Of a DNA stretch of 64,000 bases, positions 25,968-53,159 are shown in pieces. Source of the stretch: a virus. The stretch spans positions 1 through 64,000 of IMG/VR virus record IMGVR_UViG_3300049171_000092, one strand, 5' to 3'. The translations under genes were made by a program, and so were the position numbers. The notes beneath the pieces were generated by a model. That model was not told the origin of the DNA. It saw only the letters and a list, made by a program, of their open reading frames with translations, and did no database searches. Numbering within the stretch: position 1 is the first letter of the stretch; the number at the start of each line of letters is the position of its first letter.

Positions 25968-25977
25968 AGACGGAGCG

Positions 25978-35324: not shown

Positions 35325-35330
35325 CACGAT

Positions 35331-35367: not shown

Positions 35368-35369
35368 GG

Positions 35370-38612: not shown

Positions 38613-38640
38613 CGGGCACCCTCACGTGATCGTGAATGGT

Positions 38641-38662
38641 GCCCGGCCCAGAACCAGACGGC
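38641..38662 (-). promoter_or_regulatory. Late-cassette motif, copy 5 (1-nt insertion)
   Basis: GCCGTCTGGTTCTGGGCCGGGC, 28 nt before the start at 38612. 9-bp stem CCGGGCACC/GGTGCCCGG spans 38612-38646. Confidence 0.55.
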
Positions 38663-38698
38663 GTCGGCAGCACGCGCGGCGCTGCCTCGAATCTCAGG

Positions 38699-39462: not shown

Positions 39463-39488
39463 AGGTCTTTCCCTGTCTCCCGTTCCTC

Positions 39489-39510
39489 GCCCGGCCCACA
39501 ACCAGTCGGC
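39489..39510 (-). promoter_or_regulatory. Late-cassette motif, copy 6 (1-nt insertion)
   Basis: GCCGACTGGTTGTGGGCCGGGC, 26 nt before the start at 39462. Confidence 0.55.
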
Positions 39511-39537
39511 GCACTACGAAGGGTACTGGCCGTGCCG

Positions 39538-39915
39538 CTATCGCCCGAGTCGCAGCGCTCTCTGCAGCCACGGATTGGCACGGGTTCCCGGGTGCCTCAC
39601 GAGCTTGGTGAACACCACGTCGCCACCTGCCTCGAACCGGAGTGCCTTCGCCCGGCGGGGGCGGATCAAGTGCGGCCTCGTACCGTCCAAGGAAAATCGA
39701 ACAGCAGGGTGGTCGCAGGTGATGACGCCTTGCAGGCCGCGCGGTCCTTCAGTGATCTTCCAGTCGATGTACTGGCCCATGCTGCCCGGCGCCTCAGCCT
39801 CCGCAATGCGAGCCACCCGCTCCGTGCGGGCACTCACCCGGCGGTGCGCAATGCTGCCGCGGGCGCGGATAAGACGCAGCAGCCGACCCGGCTCGATAGT
39901 CACTTCGACGCTCAC
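39538..39915 (-). CDS. HK97 gp10-like head-tail joining / tail-completion protein
   Basis: C-terminus ...VFTKLVRHPGTRANPWLQRAL resembles the gp10-family HPG..A.PFL ending. GTG in a GTGA overlap. Confidence 0.55.
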   Translation of the reverse strand: MSVEVTIEPGRLLRLIRARGSIAHRRVSARTERVARIAEAEAPGSMGQYIDWKITEGPRGLQGVITCDHPAVRFSLDGTRPHLIRPRRAKALRFEAGGDVVFTKLVRHPGTRANPWLQRALRLGR

Positions 39916-40496
39916 GGCGTGACTCCTTCCGTGGGGCAGGCGCAACCGGGCAGCGCCACGATGACGCGCTGTTCGACGCCGACGCAGCCCCCTTCGGGGC
40001 CGAGGATGCGCGAGCCACCGAGGACGAACTTGCGGCCCCGCCGGCTGGTGCTCGTCGCCGGGAGGCAGCACAGAAGCGCGTTCGTGATGACCGCCGAGTC
40101 GATGTGGACGGTGCGGGCTACGGCGGCCTGCTCGTCGCACGACGGCGGGCAGCCACGATCGTTGGGCAGCGGCGCGCACCGCAGCAGCGTCACCACGTAC
40201 TCGACCGCGGTGATCGGCGGCGGGGTGCAGCCCCGCAGCCCTTGCACCTCCGCGTCCTGCGCCGGAAAGTTCGACGAGGGGTACATGCGGGCCACGGACA
40301 CCGACAGCTGCCCGCCGGTCTCCCCCGTGCACGGGTCGGCGCACGAATCCCACGCCGGCTGGCCAGGCACGACACACGTTCGGCAAGGGCAGCCGGGGAA
40401 GTCGTCTACCTCGCTCGCGGTTTCGTCGAGGGCGGCGCACACGCAGCCGAGGATGGCCTGGGCAAGGTCGTGGACGGCGAGCGCCTGCAGCGCCAT
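39912..40496 (-). CDS. Cys-rich head-tail connector protein
   Basis: 194-aa track ORF. GCPCRTCVVPGQPAWDSC...GQLSVSVARMYPSSNFP pattern, as I recall it from actinophage connectors. Confidence 0.55.
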   Translation of the reverse strand: MALQALAVHDLAQAILGCVCAALDETASEVDDFPGCPCRTCVVPGQPAWDSCADPCTGETGGQLSVSVARMYPSSNFPAQDAEVQGLRGCTPPPITAVEYVVTLLRCAPLPNDRGCPPSCDEQAAVARTVHIDSAVITNALLCCLPATSTSRRGRKFVLGGSRILGPEGGCVGVEQRVIVALPGCACPTEGVTP

Positions 40497-40505
40497 GAGG
40501 GCTCC

Positions 40506-41315
40506 TTACGGCCAGACCTGGGTGCGGGACCGCCGGTGGTCTGGGCTGTAGACGCGGCTGGGGGACGTGAGGCGGTGGGGGTTGACCGTGGTGAGCCAGA
40601 GGTCGACGAGGGGTAGACCGGTGCGCATCTCGGTGTAGAGCAGCGTCGGGTCGGCGAACTCCTGGTCGACGCCCTGCCGCGACAGACGGGTGACGTTCGC
40701 GGGCAGCTTGCAGCCGCACGCACCACCTCCGTTGCAGCCTTTGAGTAGGTGGCAGACGAGTTCGCTGTAGGCGGCGATCGCGGCGTCGTCGAGAGGCAAG
40801 CCGATCCGGTAGTGCACAGCGAACGTGCCCGGTTCACCGGCGGGCGCGGCGAGGTCCTGGCAGTCGGGCCAGCAGCCGCCGTCGGTACGCACCAGCAGCC
40901 CGGGTGAGTCGACCCGGTACGCCGACGTCGGCAGCGTCACGCCGTCGACTTCAACGCCGAGGATGTCGTAGACGGGGCCTTCGAGGCGGACTTCGCACAG
41001 CTCGGTGCAGGAGCAATCCGTGGCGCAGCCGCACACGGAGGCGTTGCGCCACTGCCCGTCGCGGCCGATGTACGGGATCCACGGGGAGCCGCCAGTCCAG
41101 GAAGAAGCGAGCGGCAGGGAGTCGAGGCAGCTGCGCCGGCAGGGCCGCACCGTGTACGGGCAGGACGGGCCCCAGCGTCGGCCGGACAGGTTGAACAGGA
41201 TGGTGGTGGCGACCCGCTTCCAGCGTTCCAGGACCGCCTCGTCGGCGTCGTCGGCGGCGGGGCAGCACGACAAATCGAGTGGCCAGGGCTCACACAACGG
41301 CCGTTGCAGGGCCAC
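40506..41315 (-). CDS. Head-to-tail adaptor-like protein
   Basis: CEPWPLDLSCC...LSGRRWG..C..TVRPCRR.C N-terminal pattern. GTG start with a GAGGAG SD. Confidence 0.6.
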   Translation of the reverse strand: MALQRPLCEPWPLDLSCCPAADDADEAVLERWKRVATTILFNLSGRRWGPSCPYTVRPCRRSCLDSLPLASSWTGGSPWIPYIGRDGQWRNASVCGCATDCSCTELCEVRLEGPVYDILGVEVDGVTLPTSAYRVDSPGLLVRTDGGCWPDCQDLAAPAGEPGTFAVHYRIGLPLDDAAIAAYSELVCHLLKGCNGGGACGCKLPANVTRLSRQGVDQEFADPTLLYTEMRTGLPLVDLWLTTVNPHRLTSPSRVYSPDHRRSRTQVWP

Positions 41316-41342
41316 GACGTCTCCTCATGGGCAGATGGGGGT

Positions 41343-41386
41343 GTGCGGTGGCCGGACGGGGAACGGGGTCCGTGCGGCCACCGCAC
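41343..41386 (-). terminator. Strong hairpin after the major-tail-like gene
   Basis: GTGCGGTGGCCG / CGGCCACCGCAC, 12-bp perfect stem. Confidence 0.6.
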
Positions 41387-41413
41387 GATCAGGGGCGCCG
41401 ACAGCCGGGGCTG

Positions 41414-42100
41414 TTACGGCACCGGGACGGGTACCGCCGCGTAGTCACACGACGGCACCGGAGGCGGCGTCGTCGTTATGAACGTGCGGCGGTGGCAAGA
41501 GCTGTCGAGCGGGGTGAGCATCGGACCCGGCGTGCCCGCGGCGTCGATCGGCATGACGTCGTAGGGGCCGACGCCCCACGAGCCGCCGGCCCGGGTAGAG
41601 CCGGTGATCTGGAGCGTGACGGCCTCCGAGCCGATCTCCAGGTCCCCGAGGAGCCCGTTCGTGACCCACGGCAGCAGGAAGTAAATCCACTGCCCCTCGG
41701 CGCCCTCAGCGCACTCCTCGCCCAAGACTTCGGCCCACAGTTCCAAGGCGAAGCCGGTGTCGCAGCGCACGCTGCAGGTGTCAAAGCCGATCGGGGCGCC
41801 GTCGTAGCCGAGGACGACCGGGTTGCCGGTGAGGATTTCGATCAGCTCCGGGCTGACGGAGAACACGTTCATCTCGATGTCGAAACCGCGGAACGTGGGA
41901 CAACCCCGTTTGAATCCGCAGATTCGGCCGTTCGATGCCTTGTATTCGATGTCTTCGCCGTCGTCGGAGTTGTTGTTCATCGCCAGGCTGGCGAAGCAGT
42001 CGAAGACGAAGCCGTTGTCGGGGCCGGGGATCGGGTTCCCGCAGCGGTCCAACCTGGTGACGCGCATGACGTCAGCGTTTGCAATCAGAGGGCAGGACAA
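41414..42100 (-). CDS. Major-tail-like protein (tentative), located upstream of the connectors
   Basis: ANADVMRVTRLDRCGNP N-terminal motif, recalled from actinophage major tail proteins. Has its own motif, a strong AGGAGG SD and a terminator hairpin. TTG start. Confidence 0.5.
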   Translation of the reverse strand: MSCPLIANADVMRVTRLDRCGNPIPGPDNGFVFDCFASLAMNNNSDDGEDIEYKASNGRICGFKRGCPTFRGFDIEMNVFSVSPELIEILTGNPVVLGYDGAPIGFDTCSVRCDTGFALELWAEVLGEECAEGAEGQWIYFLLPWVTNGLLGDLEIGSEAVTLQITGSTRAGGSWGVGPYDVMPIDAAGTPGPMLTPLDSSCHRRTFITTTPPPVPSCDYAAVPVPVP

Positions 42101-42200: not shown

Positions 42201-42500
42201 TCAGGCGGCCGGTTCCTGGGGCGGCCGGTAGCCGGAGATCTGCTGCGCTGCGGCGTCGGGGATCCCTGCGGTGAGGAGCGCTTCGTAGGCGTCTTGTTTC
42301 GCTGCGGTCTCGGCGGCGCGCCGGTCGGTGACGAGCTGCGCGTTGTTCGCTTCGAGGGTGGCGCGCTCCTGCTGGTACTCGGCTTCGGTGATCTCGACGG
42401 CGCCAGCCGGGGGCGGTACTTGCTCGTTCTCGTCGGTGACGGTCACTGTCACGGCGCGCAGGGCGCCGGTGTCGAACCGGTAGTACAGGGTTTTGTCCAC
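42201..42500 (-). CDS. Fibre-associated small protein (paralog of 28932..29300)
   Basis: 99-aa track ORF, GTG start. See the paralog alignment under 28932..29300. Confidence 0.6.
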   Translation of the reverse strand: MDKTLYYRFDTGALRAVTVTVTDENEQVPPPAGAVEITEAEYQQERATLEANNAQLVTDRRAAETAAKQDAYEALLTAGIPDAAAQQISGYRPPQEPAA

Positions 42501-42512
42501 GATGGGCCCGCC

Positions 42513-43370
42513 TTACAGGACGAAGATGAAGCAGCGCTGGGCTGTCTGGATGCGGTCGAAGGTGGCGCCGCCGCTGCCGCGGCCCATGCGCACGGAGAAC
42601 GGCAGAGAGAGGGTTCCGCCGGGCGGAATGGTGCGGTTGAAGACCTTGCAGCCCTGGGCGTGGACCTTGTTCATGGTCGTCGTGCCGGTGTTCTCGAAGT
42701 AGTACATGTCGTCGTCGCCGAGCGCGGCCATGGCGCCACCGCCCGGCGGGATGTCGAAGTCGACGTCGAGTTCCATCTCGTAGACCACGAAGGCGGGCCG
42801 GCAGGGGTCGGGGTTGGTGATGGTGAAGTCGCGGACTTCGATCTCTGCCTCGGCGGTGGTCGGTACGGGGGTCGCCGGGTAGGTGTCGTCGATGACTTGC
42901 TGCTGGAAGTCTGTTACCGGGCGGGGTTCGCTGCGGAGTTGTCCGGTGCTGTCGCAGTAGACGTTTCCGGCGTAGGTGTCGGGGGTGCAGCCGGTGTAGG
43001 GCCAGGTGCCGACGGCTGCGGCGAGGGGGGCGGTGGTGGTGCCGTCGCCGGTGAGGCCGCATGCGGTGTCGAGTTCGGCGTAGAGCCCTTCGGGTCCGGC
43101 TTGGATGAGGTTGGTGCCGCCGCCGGGCGGGGTGGCGTCGAGGCGGACGGTGGAGCTGACGACGACCGGATCGGCGGTCGTTCCGGTGCCGGTGATGGTG
43201 GTGTCGACGGTGGGGGTGTCGCCGGCCTGGATGACGGTCGGGGTACCGCTGCCGCCGCCGGGTGCGGAGATGACGTAGGGGTTGGTGGTCGAGCCGCCGC
43301 CGTCGATCTCGACGCCGGGGCCGGCGACGAGCGTGCAGGTGCAACGCTTCGCGCCGCAGCAGTCGGCCAT
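42513..43370 (-). CDS. Fibre-like protein, copy 1
   Basis: Trimmed to ATG 43368-43370. MADCCGAKRCTCTLVAGPGVEIDGGGSTTNPYVISA. Confidence 0.7.
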   Translation of the reverse strand: MADCCGAKRCTCTLVAGPGVEIDGGGSTTNPYVISAPGGGSGTPTVIQAGDTPTVDTTITGTGTTADPVVVSSTVRLDATPPGGGTNLIQAGPEGLYAELDTACGLTGDGTTTAPLAAAVGTWPYTGCTPDTYAGNVYCDSTGQLRSEPRPVTDFQQQVIDDTYPATPVPTTAEAEIEVRDFTITNPDPCRPAFVVYEMELDVDFDIPPGGGAMAALGDDDMYYFENTGTTTMNKVHAQGCKVFNRTIPPGGTLSLPFSVRMGRGSGGATFDRIQTAQRCFIFVL

Positions 43371-43398
43371 GGGAGCACTCCTCAGGAGGTGAGAGAGT

Positions 43399-43419
43399 GC
43401 CCGGCCCAAAACCAGCGGC
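43399..43419 (-). promoter_or_regulatory. Late-cassette motif, copy 8
   Basis: GCCGCTGGTTTTGGGCCGGGC, 28 nt before the start at 43370. TAAACT upstream. Confidence 0.6.
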
Positions 43420-43502: not shown

Positions 43503-46500
43503 TCAGCCGTTCGCCGACGACGGCGGCAGGAAGCAGGGGGCGACGCGCCAGCCGTCCGGCGGGGCGTCCTGGCGCTGCCCGTCCTCGTCGAGGTAGTAGA
43601 TCGAGTCGTCGCAGCACACCATCCGCGTCCACGACCGCGTCTCCGGGATCACCTGGTAGAAGACCTTCAGGTGCACCATGAGGCCGGCGCCGCCGCCCAC
43701 GGTCTCCTCGACGTCGAGGTAGAGCGCGTTACGGCCGGCCTTGGCGCCGGGGATGGCGTCCGGCCCGAAGGTGTAAGTCGTGCCGTTGTGCGTGGCCGAC
43801 GCCGGGAGGGTTTGCCAGGCGCCGTCGTTGAGCCTGAAGGCCCTTCCGGCCTGGTCCGCGTTGAAAACCGTCGCCTGCACCCGAATGCTGCTGGGATCAG
43901 CGTTGTCCGGCAGATCGAAGAACGCCCGCGGGTACCAGTGGACGTTGAGCAACGACGGGCCCTCGTTGGGCCGTGGCGGGCTCGACTGCGCCGACCGGCC
44001 ATCCGGGTGCGGGCTCACCCACCACGCCGGCCGCGCCGTGTCGGAGTCCCGCACCGTCCAGTCAGCGGAGAACTGGAACTGGTACATGTCGTACCAGACG
44101 GGGCTCGCGGCGTTGAGGTCCGTGGTCCACTTCCACACCGGGTCGACAGTGTTGTCGTTGCGATGCGCTTCGTTGGAGATGAACTCGCGGGTCTGCGTCG
44201 GGATCTGCTGGATGCACACCTGCACGGGCTGGCAGCAGTTGTCGCCGCACGTGAGCGTCGCCCGAGCAGGGATCGCCGAGCCGGTGACCGCGTCGACGAC
44301 CTTGATGCGGCCCTGGCAGTCGGCGAGCTTGACGGCCGGCCACGGCACGGTGTCGACGACGACGCCGCAGAACCGCTCGAAGTGCGGCGCGGGCGGGTCG
44401 CCGAAACCGGTGGTCGTCAGCGTCAGGCGCACCGGCTTGGAGAACTCGATCCGGTACCGGTCGCCGTTGTCGACGTTGAGCTTCGTCGGGTCGTCGTTGC
44501 GCGCGACGCCGTTACCGGCGAGCGCCCGCAGCGTCACCACCACGCCGTTGAACGTCGCCGTGCCGACGTAGCCGGCGGGCGACTGCGTCGGGTGGATCGG
44601 GATGGCCGGGTTGAACGCGGCCCAGTTGATGTCTCCGCCGAGGTCGCCGCTGGTGAACCCGAACGCCGAGATGGCGCCCGTGCTCGACTCGTAGGTGCCT
44701 TCCCAGGCGGTGACCCTGTCGCCGTAGCCGTAGCGGGGGTTCGTCGCCGTAGCGAGCATGCAGTCCGGGTAGGAGGCGCTGTTCAGGTCGAACCCGACCG
44801 CACCGTCTGGCATGGAGTAGGTGCACTCTTCCACTACCGACAGGTCGCACGGCGGCTCCTGCTGGCACTGGCCGACGTCGCCGACCGGCACGTATGGGGT
44901 GACGCCGTCCATCAGCGTGTCCGTGACGCTGGTGACCTGCCCGTCGCAGTCCCGGCAGATCCGGCGCAGGAACTGCCCGCCCGGAGCCACGCTGAAAGCG
45001 CCGACGTAGTACGTGAAGAACGTCGTGCACGCCGCGATCCTGCTGCCCTGGCCGGGCTGGGTCGTGAGGCTCGTGACCGGGCCCGGGGTGCGGAACCGGG
45101 CCATGTGCTCGGGCTGCGGGTCCGTCACGTAAGTGCAGCTGTCCGTGGTGCCGTCCCAGGTGCGGGTGAGCACACCCGTCGCCGGGTCGTAGGTGTAGTT
45201 CTCCGGCAGGCTCAGGACCTCCAGCCCGACGGGGAGCTGCGCCTGGTTGCTCGGCGGGTTCGTCGGGCTGCCGATCAGATAGACGGAGAACTCCACGACG
45301 GACGGCAGCGAGAACGTCCACCGTGTCGGCGCATCAGCCAGGTTGGGGAACGAGTGCAGCCCCCAGAACGCGATGCCGTCGCTGTTGGCGATGCGCGCGG
45401 GCATCGCCGTTCCCGTGCTGAGCGGGCCGGGGTTGCGTGCAGTGTAGGCGACACCGTTCGCCAGGGTGCCTTGCGCGGCGGTGCCCGTGATGGTGGCAGG
45501 GCTGCCCGAGTCGCACAGGATCAGCGTCTCGCAGTCCGCGCAGGGCGAGGAGGTGGAGGGCGGCTCGGGGCAGGTGCCCGCCTCGCCCTGCACCTCGTAC
45601 AGGGTGACGCCGTCGAGGGTGGTGTCCGCCGTCGTCACGCCGCCGGCGTCCCGGCACAGAGTGCGTAGGAACGGGACCGCGACGTCGGCCGCCACGGTGA
45701 TCTGCCCGTACTGGCTGGTCTGCCCGGCCGTCTGCGCGCCGGTGAGAACGGGCGCGAACATGGTCTGCGCGGTCAGGGCGTCGGTCTTGAAGACGGACTC
45801 CCCGACCTGCGTGGCGGAAGCGGTCGGGGAGATCGTCCGCGTGGCCGCGTTCCAGGTGTGCTGCACGGTGTTGATGCTGTCGAGGTACCAGCCCGCGGGG
45901 ATCCGCAGCGGCGTGGCGGTGGGCCCGGAGAACCTGACGGTGTAGCGGATGGACACCGGCCGGTCGAAGTCGAACCGCTCGGGCGCGTTGTCGGCGGCGA
46001 GGTACCAGCCGTCTCCGGAGGCCATGTCCAGGCCGCGCTTCATCCAGCGCACGCCGTTGGCGGCGAGGGTTTGCCACTGCTCGTCCGGTGTGCCGAACGA
46101 CGGGAGGACGGCCGGCACCTGGTGCTGGACGTCGCAGAGCTGGACGATCTCGCAGTCCGTACCGGGCGGGGTTTCGCAGGCGCCCGTGGTGCCGAGCACC
46201 TGGTAGGCGGTGGTCCCGTCGAGGGTGGTGTCCGTGACGGTCGTCTCGCCGGTGGCACAGTCGCGGCACAGGGTCCGCAGGAACGGCACCGGGCCGGGGT
46301 TGAGGACGAACCCGCCGACACGGGTGGCACCGACCTGGCCGCAGATCGGCACTGCCTGCGGGGTGGTGATGACCATCGACGAGACCGGTGCCGCGGTGAG
46401 GAACGTCGCGGACGTGGCGACCGCCGGCGTGCGCAGCGACGGGCAGTCGTCGCTGGTGCTGCTCAGGGTTCGGGTGGCCGCGTCGTAGCTGTACCCCTCC

Positions 46501-47267
46501 GGCAGGTGCAGCGGGATGACGTCGGTCGAGAACGTCACCGATCCGGGCCCGACCTGCACCACACTGAACTGGACGGTGGAGGGCTGCCCGAATTCCCACG
46601 TCTGCGGTCCGGCGCTGTCGCGCGGGTAGGTCTGGATGCCGTACCAGTAGCCGGTTCCGTCGGCCGAGGCGACGTTGGCCTCCAGCTCCATCGGGCCGTT
46701 GTTACCGTCCCCGGTCACGGACCAGGAGACCCCGCTGGATGCGGTCCCCGATCCCGCGTTCTCCGCCGGGGCGATGACCCCCTGGGGGCCGGTAGTGGCG
46801 GACAGGACGTCGCAGAGTTGCAACGTCTCGCAGCCGGCGCACTGCGGCGGGGTGCAGACGCCGACGGTGCCCGTGACGGTGTACGGGGTGCCGTCGAGGG
46901 TGAGGTCGGTGTGCCCGTCCGGCTCGCCGGTCGCGCAGTCGTAGGAGTAGCGGCGCAGAAACCGGACGGGCTCGCCGCCACCGGCCGGGGCGTCGCACAG
47001 CAGCTCCGTGTGGCTGTCGCAGCCGCCCTCGGTGGGGCACTGCGTCAGCTCACCCTGCACCGTGTACGCCTCGCCCGTGACGGGGTCGACGGTGCGCGTC
47101 GCGACGCGCTGGCCCGTGGAGGCGTCGTAGACCGGCTCGACGGCCACCAGGGCGGCGACGGTGCCGTCTGGCAGCACGTCGCACATGACGAGCGTTTCGA
47201 CGTCGAGCCGCTGCGAGGCGGCGGGGTTGTTGAAAACGACGGGCTGGCCGCAGCCGCATCCGCTCAC
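43503..47267 (-). CDS. Giant Cys-rich repeat protein (1254 aa), probable adhesin/receptor-binding virion protein
   Basis: GTG 47265-47267 in a GTGA overlap. N-terminus VSGCGCG. Four FLR...LDG.PY...G..G.C modules alternate with three ~200-aa divergent repeats. Confidence 0.75.
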   Translation of the reverse strand: MSGCGCGQPVVFNNPAASQRLDVETLVMCDVLPDGTVAALVAVEPVYDASTGQRVATRTVDPVTGEAYTVQGELTQCPTEGGCDSHTELLCDAPAGGGEPVRFLRRYSYDCATGEPDGHTDLTLDGTPYTVTGTVGVCTPPQCAGCETLQLCDVLSATTGPQGVIAPAENAGSGTASSGVSWSVTGDGNNGPMELEANVASADGTGYWYGIQTYPRDSAGPQTWEFGQPSTVQFSVVQVGPGSVTFSTDVIPLHLPEGYSYDAATRTLSSTSDDCPSLRTPAVATSATFLTAAPVSSMVITTPQAVPICGQVGATRVGGFVLNPGPVPFLRTLCRDCATGETTVTDTTLDGTTAYQVLGTTGACETPPGTDCEIVQLCDVQHQVPAVLPSFGTPDEQWQTLAANGVRWMKRGLDMASGDGWYLAADNAPERFDFDRPVSIRYTVRFSGPTATPLRIPAGWYLDSINTVQHTWNAATRTISPTASATQVGESVFKTDALTAQTMFAPVLTGAQTAGQTSQYGQITVAADVAVPFLRTLCRDAGGVTTADTTLDGVTLYEVQGEAGTCPEPPSTSSPCADCETLILCDSGSPATITGTAAQGTLANGVAYTARNPGPLSTGTAMPARIANSDGIAFWGLHSFPNLADAPTRWTFSLPSVVEFSVYLIGSPTNPPSNQAQLPVGLEVLSLPENYTYDPATGVLTRTWDGTTDSCTYVTDPQPEHMARFRTPGPVTSLTTQPGQGSRIAACTTFFTYYVGAFSVAPGGQFLRRICRDCDGQVTSVTDTLMDGVTPYVPVGDVGQCQQEPPCDLSVVEECTYSMPDGAVGFDLNSASYPDCMLATATNPRYGYGDRVTAWEGTYESSTGAISAFGFTSGDLGGDINWAAFNPAIPIHPTQSPAGYVGTATFNGVVVTLRALAGNGVARNDDPTKLNVDNGDRYRIEFSKPVRLTLTTTGFGDPPAPHFERFCGVVVDTVPWPAVKLADCQGRIKVVDAVTGSAIPARATLTCGDNCCQPVQVCIQQIPTQTREFISNEAHRNDNTVDPVWKWTTDLNAASPVWYDMYQFQFSADWTVRDSDTARPAWWVSPHPDGRSAQSSPPRPNEGPSLLNVHWYPRAFFDLPDNADPSSIRVQATVFNADQAGRAFRLNDGAWQTLPASATHNGTTYTFGPDAIPGAKAGRNALYLDVEETVGGGAGLMVHLKVFYQVIPETRSWTRMVCCDDSIYYLDEDGQRQDAPPDGWRVAPCFLPPSSANG

Positions 47268-49813
47268 GTCGTGACTCCTGTCGTGAAGTTGATCGTTACC
47301 GTTCCGGTCTGGGCTGCGATCCGCAGCGGACCGACGAGCCTGGCGTCGATGTCTTTGCTGATCGCCCACCGGGCTGTCTCGCCGTCGTGCAGGGTCGAGG
47401 TGCCGTCGGCGGTGGTCACCTGGCCCGTGCCGGTGCGCGCGGTCGCCTCGACGGTGCGCAGCAGCGGCCAGGCGTCGGCGTCCCACGTCTCGCCGGGGTC
47501 GAGCTGCACGCGCCGCGCCTGCACCACGACGGCGGGTTCGGCGTCGCCGGTGTTCGTGTCGGCGTCGCACGGGATCGGTGCGATCGGCGTGTAGGGGGCG
47601 GAGAGGTCGGGCGTGTACGTGCCGAGCGGTGTGAGCGTGCCGGAGGTGTCGGCGAGGAGCAGCTCGGCGTAGCACGTATCGGCGGTGCCGTCGCCGTCGG
47701 TGTCGTCGCAGCGTTCGGCGCGGATGATGCTCGAGCCGGCCGGCGTGCTGCTCGCCGGACAGAGGCCGACGGTGCCGGCGGGCGTGTACGGGGTGACGCC
47801 GTCGAGAGCGAGATCCGTGACGTCGAGGACGGCGCCGGTGCAGGTGAACGCGACGCGGCGTAGGAACGGCGTCACCGTGCCGTCTATGGCCGTGTCGCAG
47901 AGCGTCATGACGGCCGTGTCGCAGGGCTCGGCCGGTGGTGCGTCACCGTCGGCGTCGCAGTCGACGGGCGAGACTGGCGCGTAGGCCGCGGACAGGTCGG
48001 GCAGGTAGTCGCCGAGTGGGCTGATCAAGCCGTCGCAGTCGACGGCGAGGAGCGCGACGTAGTCCGTATCGGCGACGCCGTCGCCGTCGGTGTCGTCGCA
48101 GCGGCAGACGCGGAGCACGTTCGTCGTCGTGCACGGCTGGGGCGGGACGGGTGGGGATCCGGTGCCGCTGCCGGGTACGCACTGCCGGACGTCGCCGCCG
48201 ACGGTGTACGGGGCGCCGTCGAGCGTCGTGTCCGTGATCTCGGTGACCTGGCCGGTCTCGCAGTCGGTGACGATCGTCCGTAGGAACTGGACGGCGCAGC
48301 CGTCGAGGGTGGCGCCGATGTCGACTTGATCGACGGTCCATGCCTTCGGCCCGAGGTGGTGCGTCTCGAGGATGAGGATGACGTACAGGTCGCCGGAGGT
48401 GAGATCGGCGGCCGTGATCGGGGCGATCGCGTTCAGTGTCTGCTGGTAGCCGACGGGCGGATTCGAGAGGACGCCTTCGCCGAGGAGTCCGGTCGTGCCC
48501 CGGTAGATGCCCATGCGGCCGACGTAGGCGATGCCGTCCGTCGGCCCGTTCAGGGTGACCCGCATGGAGACGGAGAGGCTGCCTTCGCCGCCCTCGCAGG
48601 GCTGGCCGGTGATCCGGCCGACAGCGACGCGGTAGACCTGCGAGCCGTCGCCGGCGGAGGCGTCGGCGTCTGCGGGGAACGTGAACGGTCCGCCTGCCCA
48701 CAGGTCGGCGAACGAGCCGGGCAGCGTCGCGAACGGGGTGGTGAGGCCGACGTCTTGGATCGTCGCGTCGCTGATCGTCAGCGGTATAGGAGTCGCCGTG
48801 AGCGTGGTGTCGCACAGGACAACGGCTGTCGTGTCGCGGCACGGCTGCGCGTCGCATGAGGTGATCGTGCCGGTCGGCACGTAGGCGGCGCCGTCGAGCG
48901 TGTAGTCCGAGTGCCCGACGATCGCACCCGTTTCGTTGCGCCGGTAGTCGCGCAGGAACGGCGTCACGGTGCCGTCGGCGGCGACTTCACACAAGACCGC
49001 GAGGTCCTGCTCGGGCTGGTCTATGCCGGTGGGGCAGGTCGTGATCTCGCCCTGCGGCGTGTACGGCTGGCCGGTGGTGGCGTCGACGAGCTGAACGCCG
49101 CCGACGCTGCCGTCGGGGTTGTAGGTGTACTGCACGAGGACAAGGCCGAGGACGTCGCCGGTCGCCGGGTCCGTGTCGCAGAACGTGCCGGTGGTCGAGA
49201 TGTTCCGCGGCGTACCGCAGGCGGTGACTCCGGTGGGGGGCTGCCCGGCGGAGTAGGCGCCCGTCGCAAGGTTGAGCCAGCCTTCCTGCCGGATCACGCC
49301 GTCGCAGTCGCGGGTGACGAGGACGGCGATGGGTGTGCCGTCGGCGAGGCACAGGCCGAGCGTCGCCAGGGGTGCGCGCTGCTCGAGGCAGTCGGAGCCG
49401 CCGTCGCAGGATCGTACTTGGCCGATGACGACGTGCGGGGTCTCGCCGTCGATCTCGACGTCGACGTAGGCGGCGGTGCCGTTGGAGAGGAAGGTGAACT
49501 TCCGCAGGAACGGGCGGCCGGAGTCGTCGCAGAGCATCTCGGTGTGGCACTGCATGGTGCCGTGCTCGCAGTCGACCGGCGAGATGGGCGTGTACGGCTC
49601 CGAGGGGTCGCCCTGGTAGGTGAGGACGAGCTGGCTGGTGCCGTCCTGCTCGATGCACCAGAGTTCGCTGTAGGTGGTGTCGGGCAGGCCGTCACCGGTC
49701 GTGTCGTCGCAGCGCAGGACGCAGGTGGTGGTGACGCACGTGGGGGGGCATTCGCATTCGCCTCCGCCGCCTCCCCCGGCGCCGCAGGTGCAGCCGCTGT
49801 AGGAGATGGCCAT
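47264..49813 (-). CDS. Giant Cys-rich repeat protein (849 aa) with DxDxDG-type loops
   Basis: N-terminus MAISYSGCTCGAGGGGGGECEC. Three RCDDT(D/T)GDG.(A/P)DT repeats. Four FLR...LDG.PY modules. Confidence 0.75.
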   Translation of the reverse strand: MAISYSGCTCGAGGGGGGECECPPTCVTTTCVLRCDDTTGDGLPDTTYSELWCIEQDGTSQLVLTYQGDPSEPYTPISPVDCEHGTMQCHTEMLCDDSGRPFLRKFTFLSNGTAAYVDVEIDGETPHVVIGQVRSCDGGSDCLEQRAPLATLGLCLADGTPIAVLVTRDCDGVIRQEGWLNLATGAYSAGQPPTGVTACGTPRNISTTGTFCDTDPATGDVLGLVLVQYTYNPDGSVGGVQLVDATTGQPYTPQGEITTCPTGIDQPEQDLAVLCEVAADGTVTPFLRDYRRNETGAIVGHSDYTLDGAAYVPTGTITSCDAQPCRDTTAVVLCDTTLTATPIPLTISDATIQDVGLTTPFATLPGSFADLWAGGPFTFPADADASAGDGSQVYRVAVGRITGQPCEGGEGSLSVSMRVTLNGPTDGIAYVGRMGIYRGTTGLLGEGVLSNPPVGYQQTLNAIAPITAADLTSGDLYVILILETHHLGPKAWTVDQVDIGATLDGCAVQFLRTIVTDCETGQVTEITDTTLDGAPYTVGGDVRQCVPGSGTGSPPVPPQPCTTTNVLRVCRCDDTDGDGVADTDYVALLAVDCDGLISPLGDYLPDLSAAYAPVSPVDCDADGDAPPAEPCDTAVMTLCDTAIDGTVTPFLRRVAFTCTGAVLDVTDLALDGVTPYTPAGTVGLCPASSTPAGSSIIRAERCDDTDGDGTADTCYAELLLADTSGTLTPLGTYTPDLSAPYTPIAPIPCDADTNTGDAEPAVVVQARRVQLDPGETWDADAWPLLRTVEATARTGTGQVTTADGTSTLHDGETARWAISKDIDARLVGPLRIAAQTGTVTINFTTGVTT

Positions 49814-50205
49814 CAGCTATCCCCCTCGGGGTGGGCCTGGCGGCGGTGGGTGTTCCGGCCGCGTTCGGTCGCGAAGGTGCGCGGGCACCGATCGCAGGCG
49901 TAGGCGTCGTCGGCGTCGTCGCTGGGGGCGTCCTCCAGCGGCGCGAAGTCCGAACCCGGCCCGGTCTCGCTGAAGGCCTCGGGGGTGGCGACACCCAGGA
50001 GTTCCTGGTCAGCGTCCTCTTCGGGTGAGCGGTAGCGGTGGCCGTCGACGAGGGAGCCGATCAGCAGCTCTTCCGGCATGTGCGTGAACAGGTCCGGGGG
50101 GACGGCGAACTCGCTGTGGGAGCAGGTTTCTACCTGCGGGGTCTGGGCGGTCGCCCACCGGGCGAACGCTGCACGCCGCTCGGGCGCGGGCCGCACTTTG
50201 ATCAT
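49813..50205 (-). CDS. Acidic protein with a C-terminal classical C2H2 zinc finger
   Basis: YACDRCPRTFATERGRNTHRRQAH fits Y-x-C-x2-C-x3-F-x8-H-x4-H. ATG 50203-50205; GTG 50217 is the alternative. Confidence 0.6.
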   Translation of the reverse strand: MIKVRPAPERRAAFARWATAQTPQVETCSHSEFAVPPDLFTHMPEELLIGSLVDGHRYRSPEEDADQELLGVATPEAFSETGPGSDFAPLEDAPSDDADDAYACDRCPRTFATERGRNTHRRQAHPEGDS

Positions 50206-50207
50206 CG

Positions 50208-51044
50208 TCAGCAGCACGTCGAGATCCTCACTGCCGCCGCCTCACAGCACGCCACCTCGATCACGGAAGTGCGCTCGGCGAGGACGTACCGGTCATTCAG
50301 GCGGGTGTCGATGCTCCCGGCCTCGGTGGGCGGGATGATGTCGAGCGGTCCGCGCCGCACCCGCACGGGCCCGGTGATGTAGAGCCACGCTTCGCCGTCG
50401 GGTGCCTGCGTGCAGGTCGGCCCGCCGACGTTCGTGGCGTAGCCGGCGCCCATCACCACGCCGTTACCCATGAGCGTTTCGGGGCATTGGGTGTCGCGGG
50501 TGCGGGTGACGACGTTGCAGCAGCCCAGCAGCGCTGCCGCGCCGGCAGGGATGTGCAGGATGCCTTCGCCGCCGTAGTGCTCGGCCAGCCAGCCCTCCAG
50601 CGCGGCGATGCCCTGCGCGGCCGGCAACGCCCCCGACGCGGGGGTGAGGTCGTTGTCGGCGGCCATCGTGCACAGGGCGTTCATCATGAACCAGGATTCG
50701 AGGGCGCGCTGCTCGCCCATGCGGAGAGTTTCCGCAGCGTGCTCGACGGCCTCGTCGTAGGTCATGCCGAACGTGCTGCACGTGGACCCTGCGTATGTAG
50801 TCACCGGGTCGAACTCGCACACCCCGGGCCGGTCGAAGATCTTCGATGCCGGGTTGGGCACGGTGGGGGGCGGGCAGTCCCGCTCCCACGTGTGGGTCTC
50901 CGCGCACGACAGCGGCACGAACTGGGTGCCGTTCATCTCGTGCAGATCGGTGACGTCTACGACCTCTACGCACCCGCCGAGGAGGCCGTAGGGGCTCGGG
51001 TTGCCGCGGATGGGGGCTACGGTCTTGCGCATCCCTCCCGCCAT
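50208..51044 (-). CDS. Virion protein, possibly a second HK97-fold capsid-like protein
   Basis: ATG 51042-51044. ...EQRALESWF...GILHIPAGAAALL...LMGNGVVMGAGY...AWLYITGPVRVRRGP resembles the C-terminal half of HK97-type capsid proteins. Confidence 0.45.
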   Translation of the reverse strand: MAGGMRKTVAPIRGNPSPYGLLGGCVEVVDVTDLHEMNGTQFVPLSCAETHTWERDCPPPTVPNPASKIFDRPGVCEFDPVTTYAGSTCSTFGMTYDEAVEHAAETLRMGEQRALESWFMMNALCTMAADNDLTPASGALPAAQGIAALEGWLAEHYGGEGILHIPAGAAALLGCCNVVTRTRDTQCPETLMGNGVVMGAGYATNVGGPTCTQAPDGEAWLYITGPVRVRRGPLDIIPPTEAGSIDTRLNDRYVLAERTSVIEVACCEAAAVRISTCC

Positions 51045-51070
51045 CTGCCTCACGCCCTCTCGTGGTTCGG

Positions 51071-51106
51071 GCGCAGCCCCGGCCGGGCAGATGGCCGAGG
51101 CTGCGC
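51071..51106 (-). terminator. Hairpin after the major capsid gene
   Basis: GCGCAGCC(c)CGGCC ... GGCCG(a)GGCTGCGC. Confidence 0.55.
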
Positions 51107-51120
51107 GCAAAGGGGGTGGG

Positions 51121-52767
51121 TTAGGCGGTCGGGCAGGCGACGGCGGCGCGCGGGCCGACGGAGCCGTCGGCGCAGACCGGGATGGTGATGGCGCGGGCCT
51201 GCGGGCCGCGGTAGATGAGGGCGTTGCAGGACTCGAAGAACAGGGCGGTCATGTCGTTGGTGCGCAGCAGGGTGCTGTCGTGGACGACGCCGAGGTTGAT
51301 CTCGGGGCCGCGGCCCATCTGGAAGGCGCCGGCCGGGTAGAGCAGGGCCTGCACGGTGGCGGGCCAGGCGGTGGCGGGGGTGGTGTTGCCGATCTGGGTG
51401 GGGACGGCCGGGGGCAGGCCCTTGACCCACTGGACGCGGACGCCGAGGTCGGCGAAGGCCTGCTCGACGCAGTTCTGGTTGAGGTCGCAGACGTTGACGC
51501 CGTCACGGCGGGCGATGTCGGCGAGGAACATGTTGCGCGCCCAGTACGGCAGGACCAGCTCGAGGCCGATCCGCTCGCAGAGGTTGAACCGTTCGGTCAT
51601 GTCGGCGATCTGCAGGGCGAGCGCCCCGTACACCGCCGAGAAGGACGCGAAGCTGGTGGCGGTGGTGACGGGCGTGGCCCGGGTGAGGGCCTGCTGGTAC
51701 ATGGCGGCCTTGAGACGCATCTCGTAGGCAACCATGGCGCGGCGGATGTAGAAGGTGGTCAGTTCCGGGAAGAACCGCTGGGAGAGGATGCCGGCCTGGA
51801 TGCAGGCGCCGTAGGCGGTGCAGCGGACCTCGACCGGGTCCACACAGGGGATCTTGAAGCAGGGCTTGGTGGGGTCGCCGTCGACCGCGCTGATGTCGTC
51901 GGCTTCGGTCCAGACCCACGACATGGCGGTGACGTCCAGCTCGGGTGTCATGTAGTAGCGCAGCCCGCCCCGGGACAGGTTGAGCTCGGGCAGGTCCCAC
52001 AGGTTGTCCGGGCAGGAGATCTCGGTGAAGTCGTACACCGTCTCTGAGGGGGCGCACCAGCCGCCCGAGGCGACGAGGTCACCGCCCTTCAGGCGCCGCT
52101 GGTCGGCGGCCTTCAGGACCTTGGTGGTGCCCTCCTCTGGGGAGCCGGCGTCGTTGATGACGAGGTCCTGCGGGAAGGGCAGCTGGTACGAGGCGGCGAT
52201 GGCCTTGCCGCCGTTGGTGACGAGCTGCGCGACCTTGGTGACGGACTCGGTCAGCCCGTCCATGTCCAGCGGTGCGCCGAGGCTGGCGCCGGGGACCTCG
52301 GCGGAGGCGACGATCGTGACGGCCGGGGTGCCGGACTGCGGCATCGGCTGCCGCGGCTGCCGCTCCCGCACGGTGGCGAGGCTGATGATCGGGCGCCGCA
52401 CGACGGCGGACGACGCGGCGACCTCCTCGACGACCGGCTCCTCCTCGGCGGCGGGCTCGGCCGGCTCGTCCGTCTCGGCGGCCGGGTGGTCGTCGGTGTC
52501 GGTGGCGGCTTCCTCGCCGAGGACCTGGGCGGCGAGTTCGTCGAGTTCAGCGACGGCAGCCTGCGCGGCTTCGACGCGCTGGGTCTGCTCGGCGCGCAGC
52601 GCCTCGATTCCGGTGGCCAGCTCCCGCAGGACGGGCAGGTCTTCGGTGGTGAGGTTGGGGTCCTGACGCCGGGCGTTGAACGCCTCGACGGCGGCGGCGA
52701 GGGTGGCGTCGAGGTCCTCGCTGCTGAGGCTGGTGACGTCGTCGGGAAGCTGGAAGGGCTCGGACAT
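51121..52767 (-). CDS. Major capsid protein with N-terminal scaffold-like (coiled-coil/acidic) domain
   Basis: 548 aa. Coiled-coil plus acidic linker, then ASGGWCAPSETVYDF and an HK97-like C-terminal region. AGGAG SD. Flanked by the 21-nt motif and a hairpin. Confidence 0.78.
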   Translation of the reverse strand: MSEPFQLPDDVTSLSSEDLDATLAAAVEAFNARRQDPNLTTEDLPVLRELATGIEALRAEQTQRVEAAQAAVAELDELAAQVLGEEAATDTDDHPAAETDEPAEPAAEEEPVVEEVAASSAVVRRPIISLATVRERQPRQPMPQSGTPAVTIVASAEVPGASLGAPLDMDGLTESVTKVAQLVTNGGKAIAASYQLPFPQDLVINDAGSPEEGTTKVLKAADQRRLKGGDLVASGGWCAPSETVYDFTEISCPDNLWDLPELNLSRGGLRYYMTPELDVTAMSWVWTEADDISAVDGDPTKPCFKIPCVDPVEVRCTAYGACIQAGILSQRFFPELTTFYIRRAMVAYEMRLKAAMYQQALTRATPVTTATSFASFSAVYGALALQIADMTERFNLCERIGLELVLPYWARNMFLADIARRDGVNVCDLNQNCVEQAFADLGVRVQWVKGLPPAVPTQIGNTTPATAWPATVQALLYPAGAFQMGRGPEINLGVVHDSTLLRTNDMTALFFESCNALIYRGPQARAITIPVCADGSVGPRAAVACPTA

Positions 52768-52895: not shown

Positions 52896-53159
52896 TTAGG
52901 ACGTGGTGGTCGGTTCGGTGTCGGTGGTATCGGCTTGCTCGACGGTGGTGGGGTCCGGCGTTGCGGCCGGCTTTGTTGAGGCGTCGGGATCAGGGTCGAT
53001 GCGGCTGCCGGAGTAGTTACGGGCGACGGTCTTCGCCAGGGCGGGGTCGTGGGTCTGGAAGGCGACCCGTTCCGGGTTGCTGTTGACCATGACCTTGTAC
53101 AGGGTCTGCTGTGTGCCGCTGCGTGCCCGGACGCGGCTGGAGCAGGCGCCGCACGCCAT
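52896..53159 (-). CDS. Small CxxC protein with Thr/Asp/Pro-rich tail
   Basis: MACGACSS...TLYKVMV... Paralog of the next gene. Confidence 0.55.
   Translation of the reverse strand: MACGACSSRVRARSGTQQTLYKVMVNSNPERVAFQTHDPALAKTVARNYSGSRIDPDPDASTKPAATPDPTTVEQADTTDTEPTTTS

What the first reader, a model, noticed from the sequence alone, without database searches (positions are those of the whole stretch)
43503..49813. Two translationally coupled giant Cys-rich repeat proteins built from an unrecognised FLR...LDG.PY...C module
An 849-aa ORF and a 1254-aa ORF overlap by GTGA at 47264-47267. Together they carry at least eight copies of a ~45-55 aa module. Examples are VRFLRRYSYDCATGEPDGHTDLTLDGTPYTVTGTVGVC, VPFLRTLCRDCATGETTVTDTTLDGTTAYQVLGTTGAC, VQFLRTIVTDCETGQVTEITDTTLDGAPYTVGGDVRQC and TPFLRRVAFTCTGAVLDVTDLALDGVTPYTPAGTVGLC. 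Many copies are followed by C...(L)CD. The 849-aa protein also has three RCDDT(D/T)GDG.(A/P)DT..Y....G...PLG.Y.PDLS.PY.P..P..CD repeats that resemble calcium-binding DxDxDG loops. The 1254-aa protein interleaves three divergent ~200-aa repeats (e.g. ...WYGIQTYPRDSAGPQTWEFGQPSTVQFSV..., ...FWGLHSFPNLADAPTRWTFSLPSVVEFSV...). Both start with CxC clusters like the smaller fibre-like proteins. I do not recognise the module as a named domain. At 6.3 kb this is the largest coding investment in the window, and it sits in an unusual place between the head genes and the connector genes.
Basis: partly seen in the sequence, partly recalled or inferred. Interest (0 to 1): 0.75.

Follow-up and report, generated by a model that had tools for sequence, protein, structure and literature searches.

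The report
Modular cysteine-stapled phage adhesin cassette
Two very large genes in a Streptomyces-type temperate phage are built from about 15 copies of an undescribed 55-residue two-cysteine beta module that carries sugar-binding-like domains in one loop, and they most likely form an optional host-binding appendage of the virus particle.

Summary
A (849 aa, 47264-49813, minus) and B (1254 aa, 43503-47267, minus) overlap by GTGA, and each has a Shine-Dalgarno-like sequence.

Together they hold about 15 copies of one ~55-aa all-beta module with two invariant cysteines. The FLR...LDG.PY...C copies and the RCDD/DGDG repeats are variants of that module. In five copies a 150-400-aa beta-sandwich domain appears to sit between strand 1 (xxLCD) and strand 2 (FLR). 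In homologues a genuine Pfam CBM_4_9 domain occupies the same site.

Pfam, NCBIfam and PDB sequence searches, and Foldseek, name nothing. The only family match is PHROG 18824, of unknown function. The module occurs in 534 protein clusters, and every one whose source was checked is from an actinomycete or its phage.

The genes fill a hypervariable slot (3.3-14.6 kb) between a small conserved gene and the major tail gene in 51 of 53 related viral contigs. Cluster BG phages such as TP1604/BayC lack the cassette, so it is accessory. In PIS136 and one contig the homologue follows the tape measure and minor tail genes.

Best reading: optional virion-borne glycan-binding appendages. Their place on the virion and the cysteine chemistry are untested.

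The parts
47264..49813 (-). Gene A, 849 aa: 9 module copies, one nested beta-sandwich domain and a conserved C-terminal beta domain
   Evidence: PHROG 18824 E 2e-215
43503..47267 (-). Gene B, 1254 aa, GTG start overlapping A's stop (GTGA): 2 complete modules, 3 split modules carrying inserts, 2 C-terminal beta domains and a short terminal module
   Evidence: (identical P0121)
49736..49813 (-). A residues 1-26: N-terminal Cys/Gly cluster (GCTCGAGGGGGGECECPPTC)
   Evidence: pLDDT below 50
49568..49735 (-). A module 1 (residues 27-82), RCDD/DGDG variant
49406..49552 (-). A module 2 (88-136), FLR type
49217..49372 (-). A module 3 (148-199), GLCLADG type, nearly invariant across homologues
49034..49195 (-). 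A module 4 (207-260)
48854..49012 (-). A module 5 (268-320), FLR type
48179..48838 (-). A split module 6: strand 1 (326-336, ...VVLCD), nested variable beta-sandwich (337-503, weakly CBM-like), remainder (504-545, QFLR...C)
47957..48127 (-). A module 7 (563-619), RCDD variant with D-x-D-x-D-G loop (D574-G579)
47759..47923 (-). A module 8 (631-685), FLR type
47567..47734 (-). A module 9 (694-749), RCDD variant with D-x-D-x-D-G loop (D704-G709)
47267..47548 (-). A C-terminal beta domain (756-849), conserved in about 130 homologues (median 60% identity); also found at the end of many B-type homologues
47244..47267 (-). B N-terminal CxC cluster (MSGCGCGQ)
46854..47207 (-). B complete modules b1 (21-77) and b2 (83-138)
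46176..46841 (-). B split module b3: strand 1 (143-154, CETLQLCD), insert ins1 (155-326), remainder (327-364, VPFLR...C)
45570..46154 (-). B split module b4: strand 1 (372-380, CEIVQLCD), insert ins2 (381-529), remainder (530-566)
44865..45542 (-). B split module b5: strand 1 (576-587, CETLILCD), insert ins3 (588-762), remainder (763-801)
44262..44846 (-). B beta-sandwich domain ins4 (808-1002), pLDDT around 90
43629..44261 (-). B conserved Trp-rich beta domain BC (1003-1213), 80-86% identical in many homologues that are otherwise 30-55% identical
43533..43640 (-). B terminal short module-like segment (1210-1245, SWTRMVCCDD...WRVAPC)
49813..50217 (-). p134, the small conserved gene that marks the upstream edge of the cassette slot; C-terminal C2H2-like motif
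42201..43409 (-). p298 (fibre-like, N-terminal CC/CxC cluster) plus p99, downstream members of the cassette and paralogues of p280 + p122 in the tail-fibre region
41414..42100 (-). Major tail protein gene, downstream edge of the slot
   Evidence: phrog_792, E 1.7e-91

Best explanation
A and B are optional proteins made late in infection and carried on the virion, and they act as host-surface adhesins.

Each is a string of small (~55 aa) four-strand beta modules. Every module is held by two invariant cysteines, and about a fifth of copies carry a second, co-varying pair. These are most likely disulfide staples that form once the particle reaches an oxidising environment.

The hairpin loop between strands 1 and 2 is the variable display site. 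It is short in plain copies. In the RCDD variant it carries an acidic D-x-D-x-D-G loop that may bind calcium. In five copies it hosts a whole beta-sandwich domain of lectin or carbohydrate-binding type. These displayed domains, together with the conserved Trp-rich C-terminal domain of B, would bind cell-wall glycopolymers of the actinomycete host and give reversible primary adsorption or a wider host range. The N-terminal CxC clusters, shared with three smaller fibre-like proteins, would tie subunits together or to the virion.

Shown: the module, its copy number, its conservation, the accessory and hypervariable nature of the cassette, a real CBM at the insertion site in homologues, and the tail-fibre-slot location in two relatives.

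Inferred: presence in the virion, glycan binding, disulfides, oligomeric state, the nesting geometry, and whether the attachment point is tail, neck or head.
For: **Late structural operon**
- The gene order on the minus strand is terminase, portal, MuF-protease, capsid, p300, p134, A, B, p298, p99, major tail, adaptor, tape measure, minor tail proteins and endolysin.
- A and B overlap by 4 nt with a Shine-Dalgarno-like sequence.

**Accessory cassette**
- BayC/TP1604 run capsid, gp14, gp15, major tail with only an 87-nt gap.
- Xkcd426 and Mischief19 carry a 6-7 kb block at the same spot.
- The Xkcd426 insertion of five orphan genes is noted in PMC5511901, and all five phages of that report were isolated on the same S. 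griseus strain.

**Hypervariable slot**
- The distance from p134 to the major tail gene is 3.3-14.6 kb (median 10.3 kb) in 36 IMG/VR loci.
- 51 of 53 loci share the slot.

**Links to tail fibres**
- In PIS136 the homologue gp002 follows tape measure, a p468-like gene and a p353-like gene. Locus L048 has the same order.
- p298, next to B, is a paralogue of the tail-region protein p280 and of Mischief19 gp34.

**Display scaffold**
- Split modules match the profile only from position 14-19 onward, and each insert is preceded by a C-x5-LCD strand.
- In P0145 a CBM_4_9 domain (29.8 bits against a 25.9-bit cutoff) lies exactly between LLLCD and VPFLR. At least 15 family proteins share that insert.
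- The inserts belong to several unrelated sequence families.

**Structure models**
- AlphaFold2 gives pLDDT around 90 for the modules, separated by low-confidence linkers. All inserts are beta-sandwiches.
- The only Foldseek leads are weak: CBMs, lectins, Dit, BppU and tail fibres.

**Cysteines**
- Two Cys columns are 99-100% conserved in 860 near-full module copies.
- Columns 5 and 28 co-occur with phi 0.86 (168 both, 0 column 5 only, 46 column 28 only, 646 neither).
- 81% of complete copies have 2, 4 or 6 cysteines, nearly all 2 or 4.
- Virion proteins of this lineage are seven-fold Cys-enriched.
Against: - There is no direct evidence that A or B is in the virion, and no proteomics or imaging exists for any phage that has a homologue.
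- Neither A nor B matches a CBM profile.
- Every Foldseek hit outside the family has a low TM-score and a marginal E-value.
- The C-terminal domain of B is the most conserved part. This is the reverse of the usual receptor-binding-protein pattern, where the distal tip varies most.
- Whole-protein cysteine parity is not significantly even: 187 of 355, p = 0.17.
- The Cys co-occurrence statistics are inflated by shared ancestry of orthologous copies.
- Disulfides would not be expected to form in the reducing host cytoplasm, and I found no phage thiol oxidase among the larger ORFs.
Confidence: 0.55

Rival explanations
1. A and B are head fibres or capsid decoration. They would be anchored on the prolate capsid and project outward, like T4 Hoc or phi29 head fibres, giving weak adherence or particle stabilisation.
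For: The cassette starts two genes after the major capsid gene in 51 of 53 loci. p300, just upstream, is annotated as a capsid pentamer protein in one Gordonia phage. A beads-on-a-string layout of small beta domains is typical of capsid decoration. The cassette is dispensable.
Against: In PIS136 and L048 the homologue sits after the tape measure and minor tail genes, and in L059 the p300-p134-A block follows tail-tip genes. The cassette contains a paralogue of a tail-region fibre protein. There is no similarity to known decoration proteins or Ig-like Pfam families.
Confidence: 0.17
2. A and B are not virion components. They would be prophage-encoded accessory proteins released at lysis or expressed from the lysogen, for example to bind or mask cell-wall polymers for superinfection exclusion or to compete with other phages.
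For: The cassette is dispensable and highly variable, like moron loci. Most homologues lie in bacterial genomes, presumably as prophages. The window encodes an integrase.
Against: The genes are embedded in the late structural operon on the same strand, with an overlapping stop and start. By eye, neither N-terminus looks like a signal peptide or membrane anchor (no predictor was run). The N-terminal Cys cluster is shared with tail-region fibre-like proteins. I did not look for an independent promoter or terminator around the cassette.
Confidence: 0.1
3. The conserved C-terminal domain of B is an enzyme, a glycan depolymerase or esterase, so the pair would be a tailspike-like cell-wall-polymer-degrading device rather than a pure adhesin.
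For: The BC domain is unusually conserved (80-86% identity), with many invariant Trp, His, Asp, Asn and Glu residues.
Against: It is about 210 aa of beta-sandwich. It has no match to any hydrolase in Pfam, NCBIfam or PDB by sequence, or in PDB by fold. There is no beta-helix or catalytic fold in the model.
Confidence: 0.07

Closest known systems
PHROG 18824 (function unknown): Streptomyces phage Mischief19 gp18, Xkcd426 gp17/gp18, Saccharomonospora phage PIS136 gp002, and about 290 (A-type) and 250 (B-type) 'hypothetical proteins' of Streptomyces, Nonomuraea, Streptosporangium, Microbispora and related prophages
   Same: True homologues. They share the module, the conserved N-terminal region, the A C-terminal domain and the BC domain, and A-type and B-type genes are adjacent. 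BFVD's top fold hit, I4AZD5 (941 aa, the same length as PIS136 gp002), scores E 9e-18.
   Different: None has an assigned function or a described domain. Copy number, the set of inserted domains and the split into one, two or more genes differ from phage to phage.
CBM-decorated adhesion devices of Gram-positive siphophages, such as lactococcal 'evolved' Dit, BppA, major-tail-protein extensions and the neck passage structure (from my own knowledge of the work of Cambillau, Mahony and van Sinderen; not checked here)
   Same: These are dispensable or variable carbohydrate-binding beta-sandwich domains grafted into loops of virion scaffold proteins. Some are encoded between head and tail genes. 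Their role is glycan-based adsorption. Weak Foldseek hits to a Dit and a BppU protein point the same way.
   Different: There is no sequence or confident fold homology. The scaffold here is a repeated Cys-containing mini-module rather than Dit, Tal or the major tail protein. Virion location is unknown.
Ig-like and other small beta-domain arrays on phage surfaces, such as T4 Hoc and Big_2/FN3/I-set domains in tail and head proteins (my own knowledge)
   Same: A beads-on-a-string layout of small all-beta domains in accessory virion proteins with a proposed weak glycan-adherence role.
   Different: The module is about 55 aa with four strands and two invariant cysteines. It matches no Ig, FN3 or Big profile.
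Thrombospondin type 3 repeats and the D-x-D-x-D-G calcium-binding loop (my own knowledge)
   Same: The RCDD variant combines flanking cysteines with an acidic DDTDGDGxAD loop that fits D-x-D-x-D-G-x-x-D (A 574-582 and 704-712).
   Different: There is no TSP_3 profile match at E <= 1. The loop sits in a beta hairpin of a larger module. The first copy has Thr at the second Asp position. Calcium binding is untested.

Membership tests
PHROG 18824 (unknown function) | Significant profile-HMM match | tested here: met
   A scores E 2.1e-215 over three stretches. B scores E 2.8e-54 over four stretches.
Pfam CBM_4_9 (PF02018) carbohydrate-binding module | HMM score above the gathering cutoff | tested here: not met
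   There is no hit in A or B at E <= 1. The feature is met only in homologue P0145 (29.8 against 25.9 bits), at the equivalent insertion site. hhalign of that CBM family against the window's insert families gives probability <= 7%.
D-x-D-x-D-G calcium-binding loop / thrombospondin type 3 repeat | Sequence motif D-x-D-x-D-G followed by an acidic ligand | tested here: inconclusive
   The motif is present in A modules 7 and 9 (D574-G579 with D582; D704-G709 with D712). Module 1 has D-x-T-x-D-G. The related pattern C-D-[DN]-x-[DN]-G-[DN]-G occurs 340 times in 209 of 355 family proteins. There is no TSP_3 Pfam match.
D-x-D-x-D-G calcium-binding loop / thrombospondin type 3 repeat | Bound calcium ion | not testable with these tools
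   This needs metal analysis or an experimental structure.
Phage tail fibre / receptor-binding protein | Gene located in the tail-tip module downstream of the tape measure, Dit-like and Tal-like genes | tested here: not met
   In this window the genes lie between p134 and the major tail gene. The feature is met in PIS136 and locus L048 only.
Phage tail fibre / receptor-binding protein | Homology to a known fibre, spike or attachment domain | tested here: not met
   There are no Pfam, NCBIfam or PDB sequence hits. Foldseek hits to tail proteins are marginal.
Phage tail fibre / receptor-binding protein | Presence in the virion, trimeric state and receptor binding | not testable with these tools
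   No multimer prediction or proteomics was available.
Disulfide-stabilised extracellular repeat module (general class) | Conserved, co-varying cysteine pairs with an even number per repeat | tested here: met
   Two Cys columns are 99-100% conserved. The optional pair has phi 0.86. 81% of complete copies have 2, 4 or 6 Cys. Caveats: phylogenetic non-independence, and whole-protein parity is not significant.
Disulfide-stabilised extracellular repeat module (general class) | Cys-Cys geometry or chemistry compatible with a disulfide | not tested
Ig-like / FN3 / Big phage decoration domains | Profile match to an Ig-superfamily Pfam family | tested here: not met
   There are no such hits at E <= 1.

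The most novel reading that the evidence does not exclude
The ~55-aa two-cysteine module would be a new fold class of phage appendage. It would be a monomeric, disulfide-stapled mini-domain chain whose first hairpin loop is an evolvable insertion site for receptor-binding domains. It would also be part of a lineage-wide strategy in which actinophage virions (tail tube, adaptor, baseplate and fibres all at 4-8% Cys) become covalently cross-linked by oxidation after release. That would imply a maturation step outside the cell for a tailed phage of a Gram-positive host.
Probability: 0.22. Interest if true: 0.7.

Novelty: new variant of a known kind. Interest (0 to 1): 0.48.

Why it matters
**An unnamed domain family.** The work defines a repeat family with no name in Pfam, NCBIfam or the PDB. 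It is present in at least 534 protein clusters at 50% identity, with up to 18 copies per protein. The family can now be modelled and annotated in hundreds of Streptomyces prophages, where these genes are currently 'hypothetical'.

**A candidate host-range determinant.** The cassette is a hypervariable, dispensable locus in cluster BG-like phages. That makes it a natural candidate for a host-range determinant in Streptomyces, a genus whose phage receptors are, to my knowledge, poorly known.

**A possible engineering scaffold.** If the nested architecture holds, with foreign beta-sandwich domains in one defined hairpin loop, the module may serve as a display scaffold for engineered binding domains.

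**An open question on virion chemistry.** The strong cysteine enrichment of the whole virion in this lineage raises a testable question: do these particles use disulfide cross-linking?

Tried and rejected
**Searches that found nothing useful**
- Megablast of the region against 50,697 phage records gave no match. tblastn of B against the same records gave no match.
- Pfam, NCBIfam and PDB sequence searches gave only noise for A, B and the neighbouring genes. The best hits were DUF7133, TraK_N and Rpb3 at E 0.009-0.5.
- A profile of the BC domain against PDB gave nothing below E 0.3. Scanning 16 BC-domain sequences one by one against Pfam at E <= 5 gave no consistent family.

**Structure searches**
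- Whole-model Foldseek against PDB returned integrins, Cry toxins, spike proteins, lectins and CBMs with TM <= 0.1 on the query. I reject these as generic beta-sandwich noise. The few high-probability short hits, such as a porphyran-binding CBM and HpiC1, are leads only.

**Other tests**
- hhalign shows that A-mid, ins4, BC, the A C-terminal domain and the CBM_4_9 insert are not detectably related to one another or to ins1-3.
- There is no X XXY YYZ slippery site in the last 420 nt of A, so nothing supports a -1 frameshift A-B fusion, even though B's frame stays open 136 codons upstream.
- Whole-protein even-cysteine bias is not significant.
- A Pfam scan of ten of the larger non-structural ORFs found no phage-encoded thiol oxidase or thioredoxin. 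This was not exhaustive.
- Literature searches found no virion proteomics, imaging or cysteine chemistry for these phages.
Full report
**1. What is in the sequence**

The window is about 70% G+C. Its minus strand carries a complete late operon of a temperate siphovirus.
- PHROG profiles identify terminase (58862-60238), portal (56711-58531), a MuF-protease fusion (53315-56590) and the major capsid protein (51121-52767).
- Next come a 300-aa protein of unknown function (phrog_779, 50208-51110) and a 134-aa protein (49813-50217).
- The two ORFs of the finding follow, then a 298-aa and a 99-aa protein.
- After these come the major tail protein (41414-42100), the head-tail adaptor (40506-41315), phrog_810, the tape measure (35370-38612), two minor tail proteins, small collagen-like and glycine-rich fibre proteins, and an endolysin.
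- The left part of the window holds a tyrosine integrase, a serine resolvase, DnaB and a GntR regulator.

- B's GTG overlaps A's TGA as GTGA, and AGGAG lies 8 nt upstream.
- An identical 1254-aa gene call exists in a JGI metagenome.
- B-type homologues start with the same MSGC(C)GQP, so the GTG start is sound.
- The last 420 nt of A contain no slippery heptamer, so I see no case for a frameshift fusion.

**2. The repeat**

The eight FLR...LDG.PY...C copies are present.

AlphaFold2 models of A (mean pLDDT 80.5) and of B residues 55-1254 (mean pLDDT 78.5) used 71-sequence alignments. They show strings of small units, each with three longer strands and one short strand. The units have pLDDT around 90 and are separated by low-confidence linkers.

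I cut A and B at those boundaries and aligned the ten complete units. They align with only short gaps of up to three residues, and four positions are invariant:
- the Cys at the end of strand 1 (the 'LCD' or 'RCDD' cysteine);
- a Gly in the loop between strands 1 and 2;
- a Gly in the turn between strands 2 and 3;
- the last Cys.

A Tyr is nearly invariant.

- The RCDDT(D/T)GDG repeats are the same module with a longer acidic first loop.
- The 'C...(L)CD' that follows many copies is strand 1 of the next copy.

A profile of those ten copies finds 9 copies in A and 4 in B. Three of these were not used to build it, at E 4e-8, 4e-11 and 8e-5. This is well beyond chance.

**3. Nested domains**

Four module copies match the profile only from about position 14-19 onward: A 504-545, B 327-364, B 530-566 (found) and B 763-801. 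Each lacks strand 1.

In every case a strand of the form C-x5-LCD lies 150-190 residues upstream: B 146-153, 372-379 and 579-586, and A 328-336. A beta-sandwich domain lies between the two parts. I read this as a globular domain inserted into the first hairpin of the module.

- ins1 and ins3 are 34% identical (E 2.5e-21).
- ins1 and ins2 are 27% identical (E 8e-7).
- Family profiles of ins3 and ins2 match at 98% probability.

B then has two further beta domains, ins4 (808-1002) and BC (1003-1213), followed by a short module-like end.

The insert families A-mid, ins1-3, ins4, BC and the C-terminal domain of A are not detectably related to one another.

The best support for the display idea comes from homologue P0145. 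A Pfam CBM_4_9 domain, scoring above its gathering cutoff, sits exactly between '...LLLCD' and 'VPFLR...'. At least 15 family proteins share that insert.

**4. Is it known?**

- Pfam-A, NCBIfam and PDB sequence searches give nothing for A, B, the BC profile or individual BC sequences.
- The only family match is PHROG 18824, function unknown.
- Foldseek of the whole models against PDB gives only marginal beta-sandwich hits: CBMs, lectins, integrins and Cry toxins.
- Against BFVD the one strong hit is I4AZD5 (941 aa, the same length as PIS136 gp002). The rest are weak hits to Dit, BppU and tail-fibre-like proteins.
- The module profile finds 534 clusters at E <= 1e-3 among 1.84 billion representatives, with up to 18 copies in proteins of up to 2627 aa.
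- Every hit whose source I checked is an actinomycete or its phage: Streptomyces, Nonomuraea, Streptosporangium, Sphaerimonospora, Microbispora and others. All are 'hypothetical'.

**5. Genomic context**

A-type and B-type genes carry adjacent locus tags in many genomes.

- **Same slot in most relatives.** In 53 IMG/VR loci, 51 have the p300 gene just upstream of the A-type gene. Where the flank reaches it, the major tail gene lies downstream. The slot is 3.3-14.6 kb long, median 10.3 kb, in 36 loci. A p298-like gene closes the cassette in 17 loci.
- **Absent from close cultured relatives.** Cluster BG phages (TP1604, BayC and relatives) have capsid, p300, p134, tail and adaptor proteins that are 48-55% identical to the window's. 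Their gp15 and major tail genes are only 87 nt apart. Xkcd426 and Mischief19 carry 6-7 kb at that point.
- **Published note.** The cluster BG genome announcement remarks on this insertion of more than 6 kb, with five orphan genes, in Xkcd426. All five phages in it were isolated on S. griseus ATCC 10137 (PMC5511901). The cassette is therefore accessory.
- **Tail-fibre slot in two relatives.** In Saccharomonospora phage PIS136 the homologue gp002 comes after the tape measure and the two conserved minor tail genes, where tail-fibre genes are usually found. Locus L048 has the same order.
- **A fibre paralogue inside the cassette.** p298 and p99, next to B, are paralogues of p280 and p122 in the tail-fibre and lysis region, and of Mischief19 gp34.

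**6. Cysteines**

- A is 4.5% Cys and B 3.2%. The family average is 3.7%.
- Ten virion proteins of the window average 4.16% Cys, against 0.58% for 15 other proteins. BayC shows the same pattern.
- In 860 near-full, non-identical module copies the two defining Cys columns are 99-100% occupied.
- An optional pair, one Cys in strand 1 and one in strand 2, co-occurs with phi 0.86 (168 both, 0 first only, 46 second only, 646 neither).
- Complete copies carry 2 Cys (1231 copies), 3 (322), 4 (349), 5 (45) or 6 (4).

A two-ligand invariant site plus an optional co-varying pair fits disulfide staples better than metal sites. There are three caveats:
- The statistics are inflated by shared ancestry.
- Whole-protein parity is not significant.
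- No geometry could be measured.

The acidic loop of the RCDD variant fits D-x-D-x-D-G in two of the three copies. The related pattern C-D-[DN]-x-[DN]-G-[DN]-G is common in the family, at 340 occurrences in 209 of 355 proteins. Calcium binding is plausible and untested.

**7. Most likely mechanism**

I commit to an optional virion-borne adhesin, at confidence about 0.55.
- A and B would be chains of stapled mini-domains that present lectin-like or CBM-like domains.
- A conserved Trp-rich terminal domain would add to this binding surface.
- Together they would bind host wall glycopolymers and give primary, reversible adsorption or an extended host range.
- The N-terminal CxC clusters, shared with p298, p280 and p241, would serve for inter-subunit or virion attachment.

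Within this reading, tail attachment is somewhat more likely than neck or head, because of the PIS136 and L048 gene order and the p298/p280 paralogy.

The rivals are head fibre or decoration (0.17), a non-virion accessory protein (0.10) and an enzymatic tailspike-like function of the BC domain (0.07). The main weaknesses are:
- there are no virion data;
- A and B themselves match no CBM profile;
- the conserved C-terminus of B is atypical for a receptor-binding tip.

**8. Novelty and score**

Large, modular, variable proteins that carry binding domains on a phage particle are a familiar kind of thing. Three features are new:
- an unnamed Cys-pair repeat module;
- the apparent use of one hairpin loop as a domain-insertion site;
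- the strongly Cys-rich virion context.

I rate it a new variant of a known kind, with interest 0.48. The position is standard for the lineage, and the likely function is conventional. It is still worth a domain description and a simple test comparing Xkcd426 with TP1604.

Noticed in passing
window 29293-52767 (virion genes); locus L004 (BayC): Virion proteins of this lineage are strongly Cys-enriched. In the window the values are major tail 4.4%, adaptor 6.3%, phrog_810 protein 8.2%, phrog_838 minor tail 5.8%, p300 5.0% and capsid 2.2%, against 0-0.9% for tape measure, terminase, portal and MuF. BayC shows the same pattern.
   Followed up: partly
window 42201-43409 and 28932-30135: This is a duplicated gene pair. 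p298 + p99 (next to B) are paralogues of p280 + p122 (just upstream of the endolysin). Both large proteins match Mischief19 gp34 and begin with CC/CxC clusters followed by a 'VAG.G..I.G.GS..NP' motif.
   Followed up: partly
window 49813-50217 (-): The 134-aa protein just upstream of A ends in a classical C2H2 zinc-finger-like motif (YACDRCPRTFATERGRNTHRRQAH), which is unexpected inside a structural operon. Only its N-terminal ~60 aa are shared with BayC gp15.
   Followed up: no
window 35370-42100 (-); L004 4267-7314: The gene order is unusual. The major tail gene precedes the head-tail adaptor gene. The tape measure lies after the adaptor block here, whereas in cluster BG phages it lies upstream of the portal gene.
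   Followed up: no
window 34054-35370: The 1.3-kb stretch between the tape measure and the first minor tail gene holds only ORFs of 136 and 161 aa with no PHROG match.
   Followed up: no
window 4079-5773, 18105-19388, 20847-21344, 25398-25985: The window shows temperate-phage features: DnaB helicase, tyrosine integrase on the plus strand, a GntR-type regulator and a serine resolvase. The contig is probably a complete or near-complete temperate phage. The identical B protein occurs on JGI contigs of up to 85 kb.
   Followed up: partly
locus L007 18051-21903 (Streptomyces sp. NBC_00104 prophage): A related prophage carries a 681-aa glycosyltransferase (GT4 families) and a weak Stealth_CR2 protein a few kb downstream of its A-type gene, inside the structural region.
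   Followed up: no
locus L059 (IMGVR_UViG_3300003316_000274): In this rearranged relative the tail-tip genes (p468-like, p353-like, p280-like) lie directly upstream of p300, p134 and the A-type gene, with no capsid gene between them.
   Followed up: no
window 52896-53159 (-): A small 87-aa ORF between the MuF fusion and the capsid gene begins MACGACSS. It occupies the same position as small unannotated genes in BayC (gp12) and Xkcd426 (gp13).
   Followed up: no
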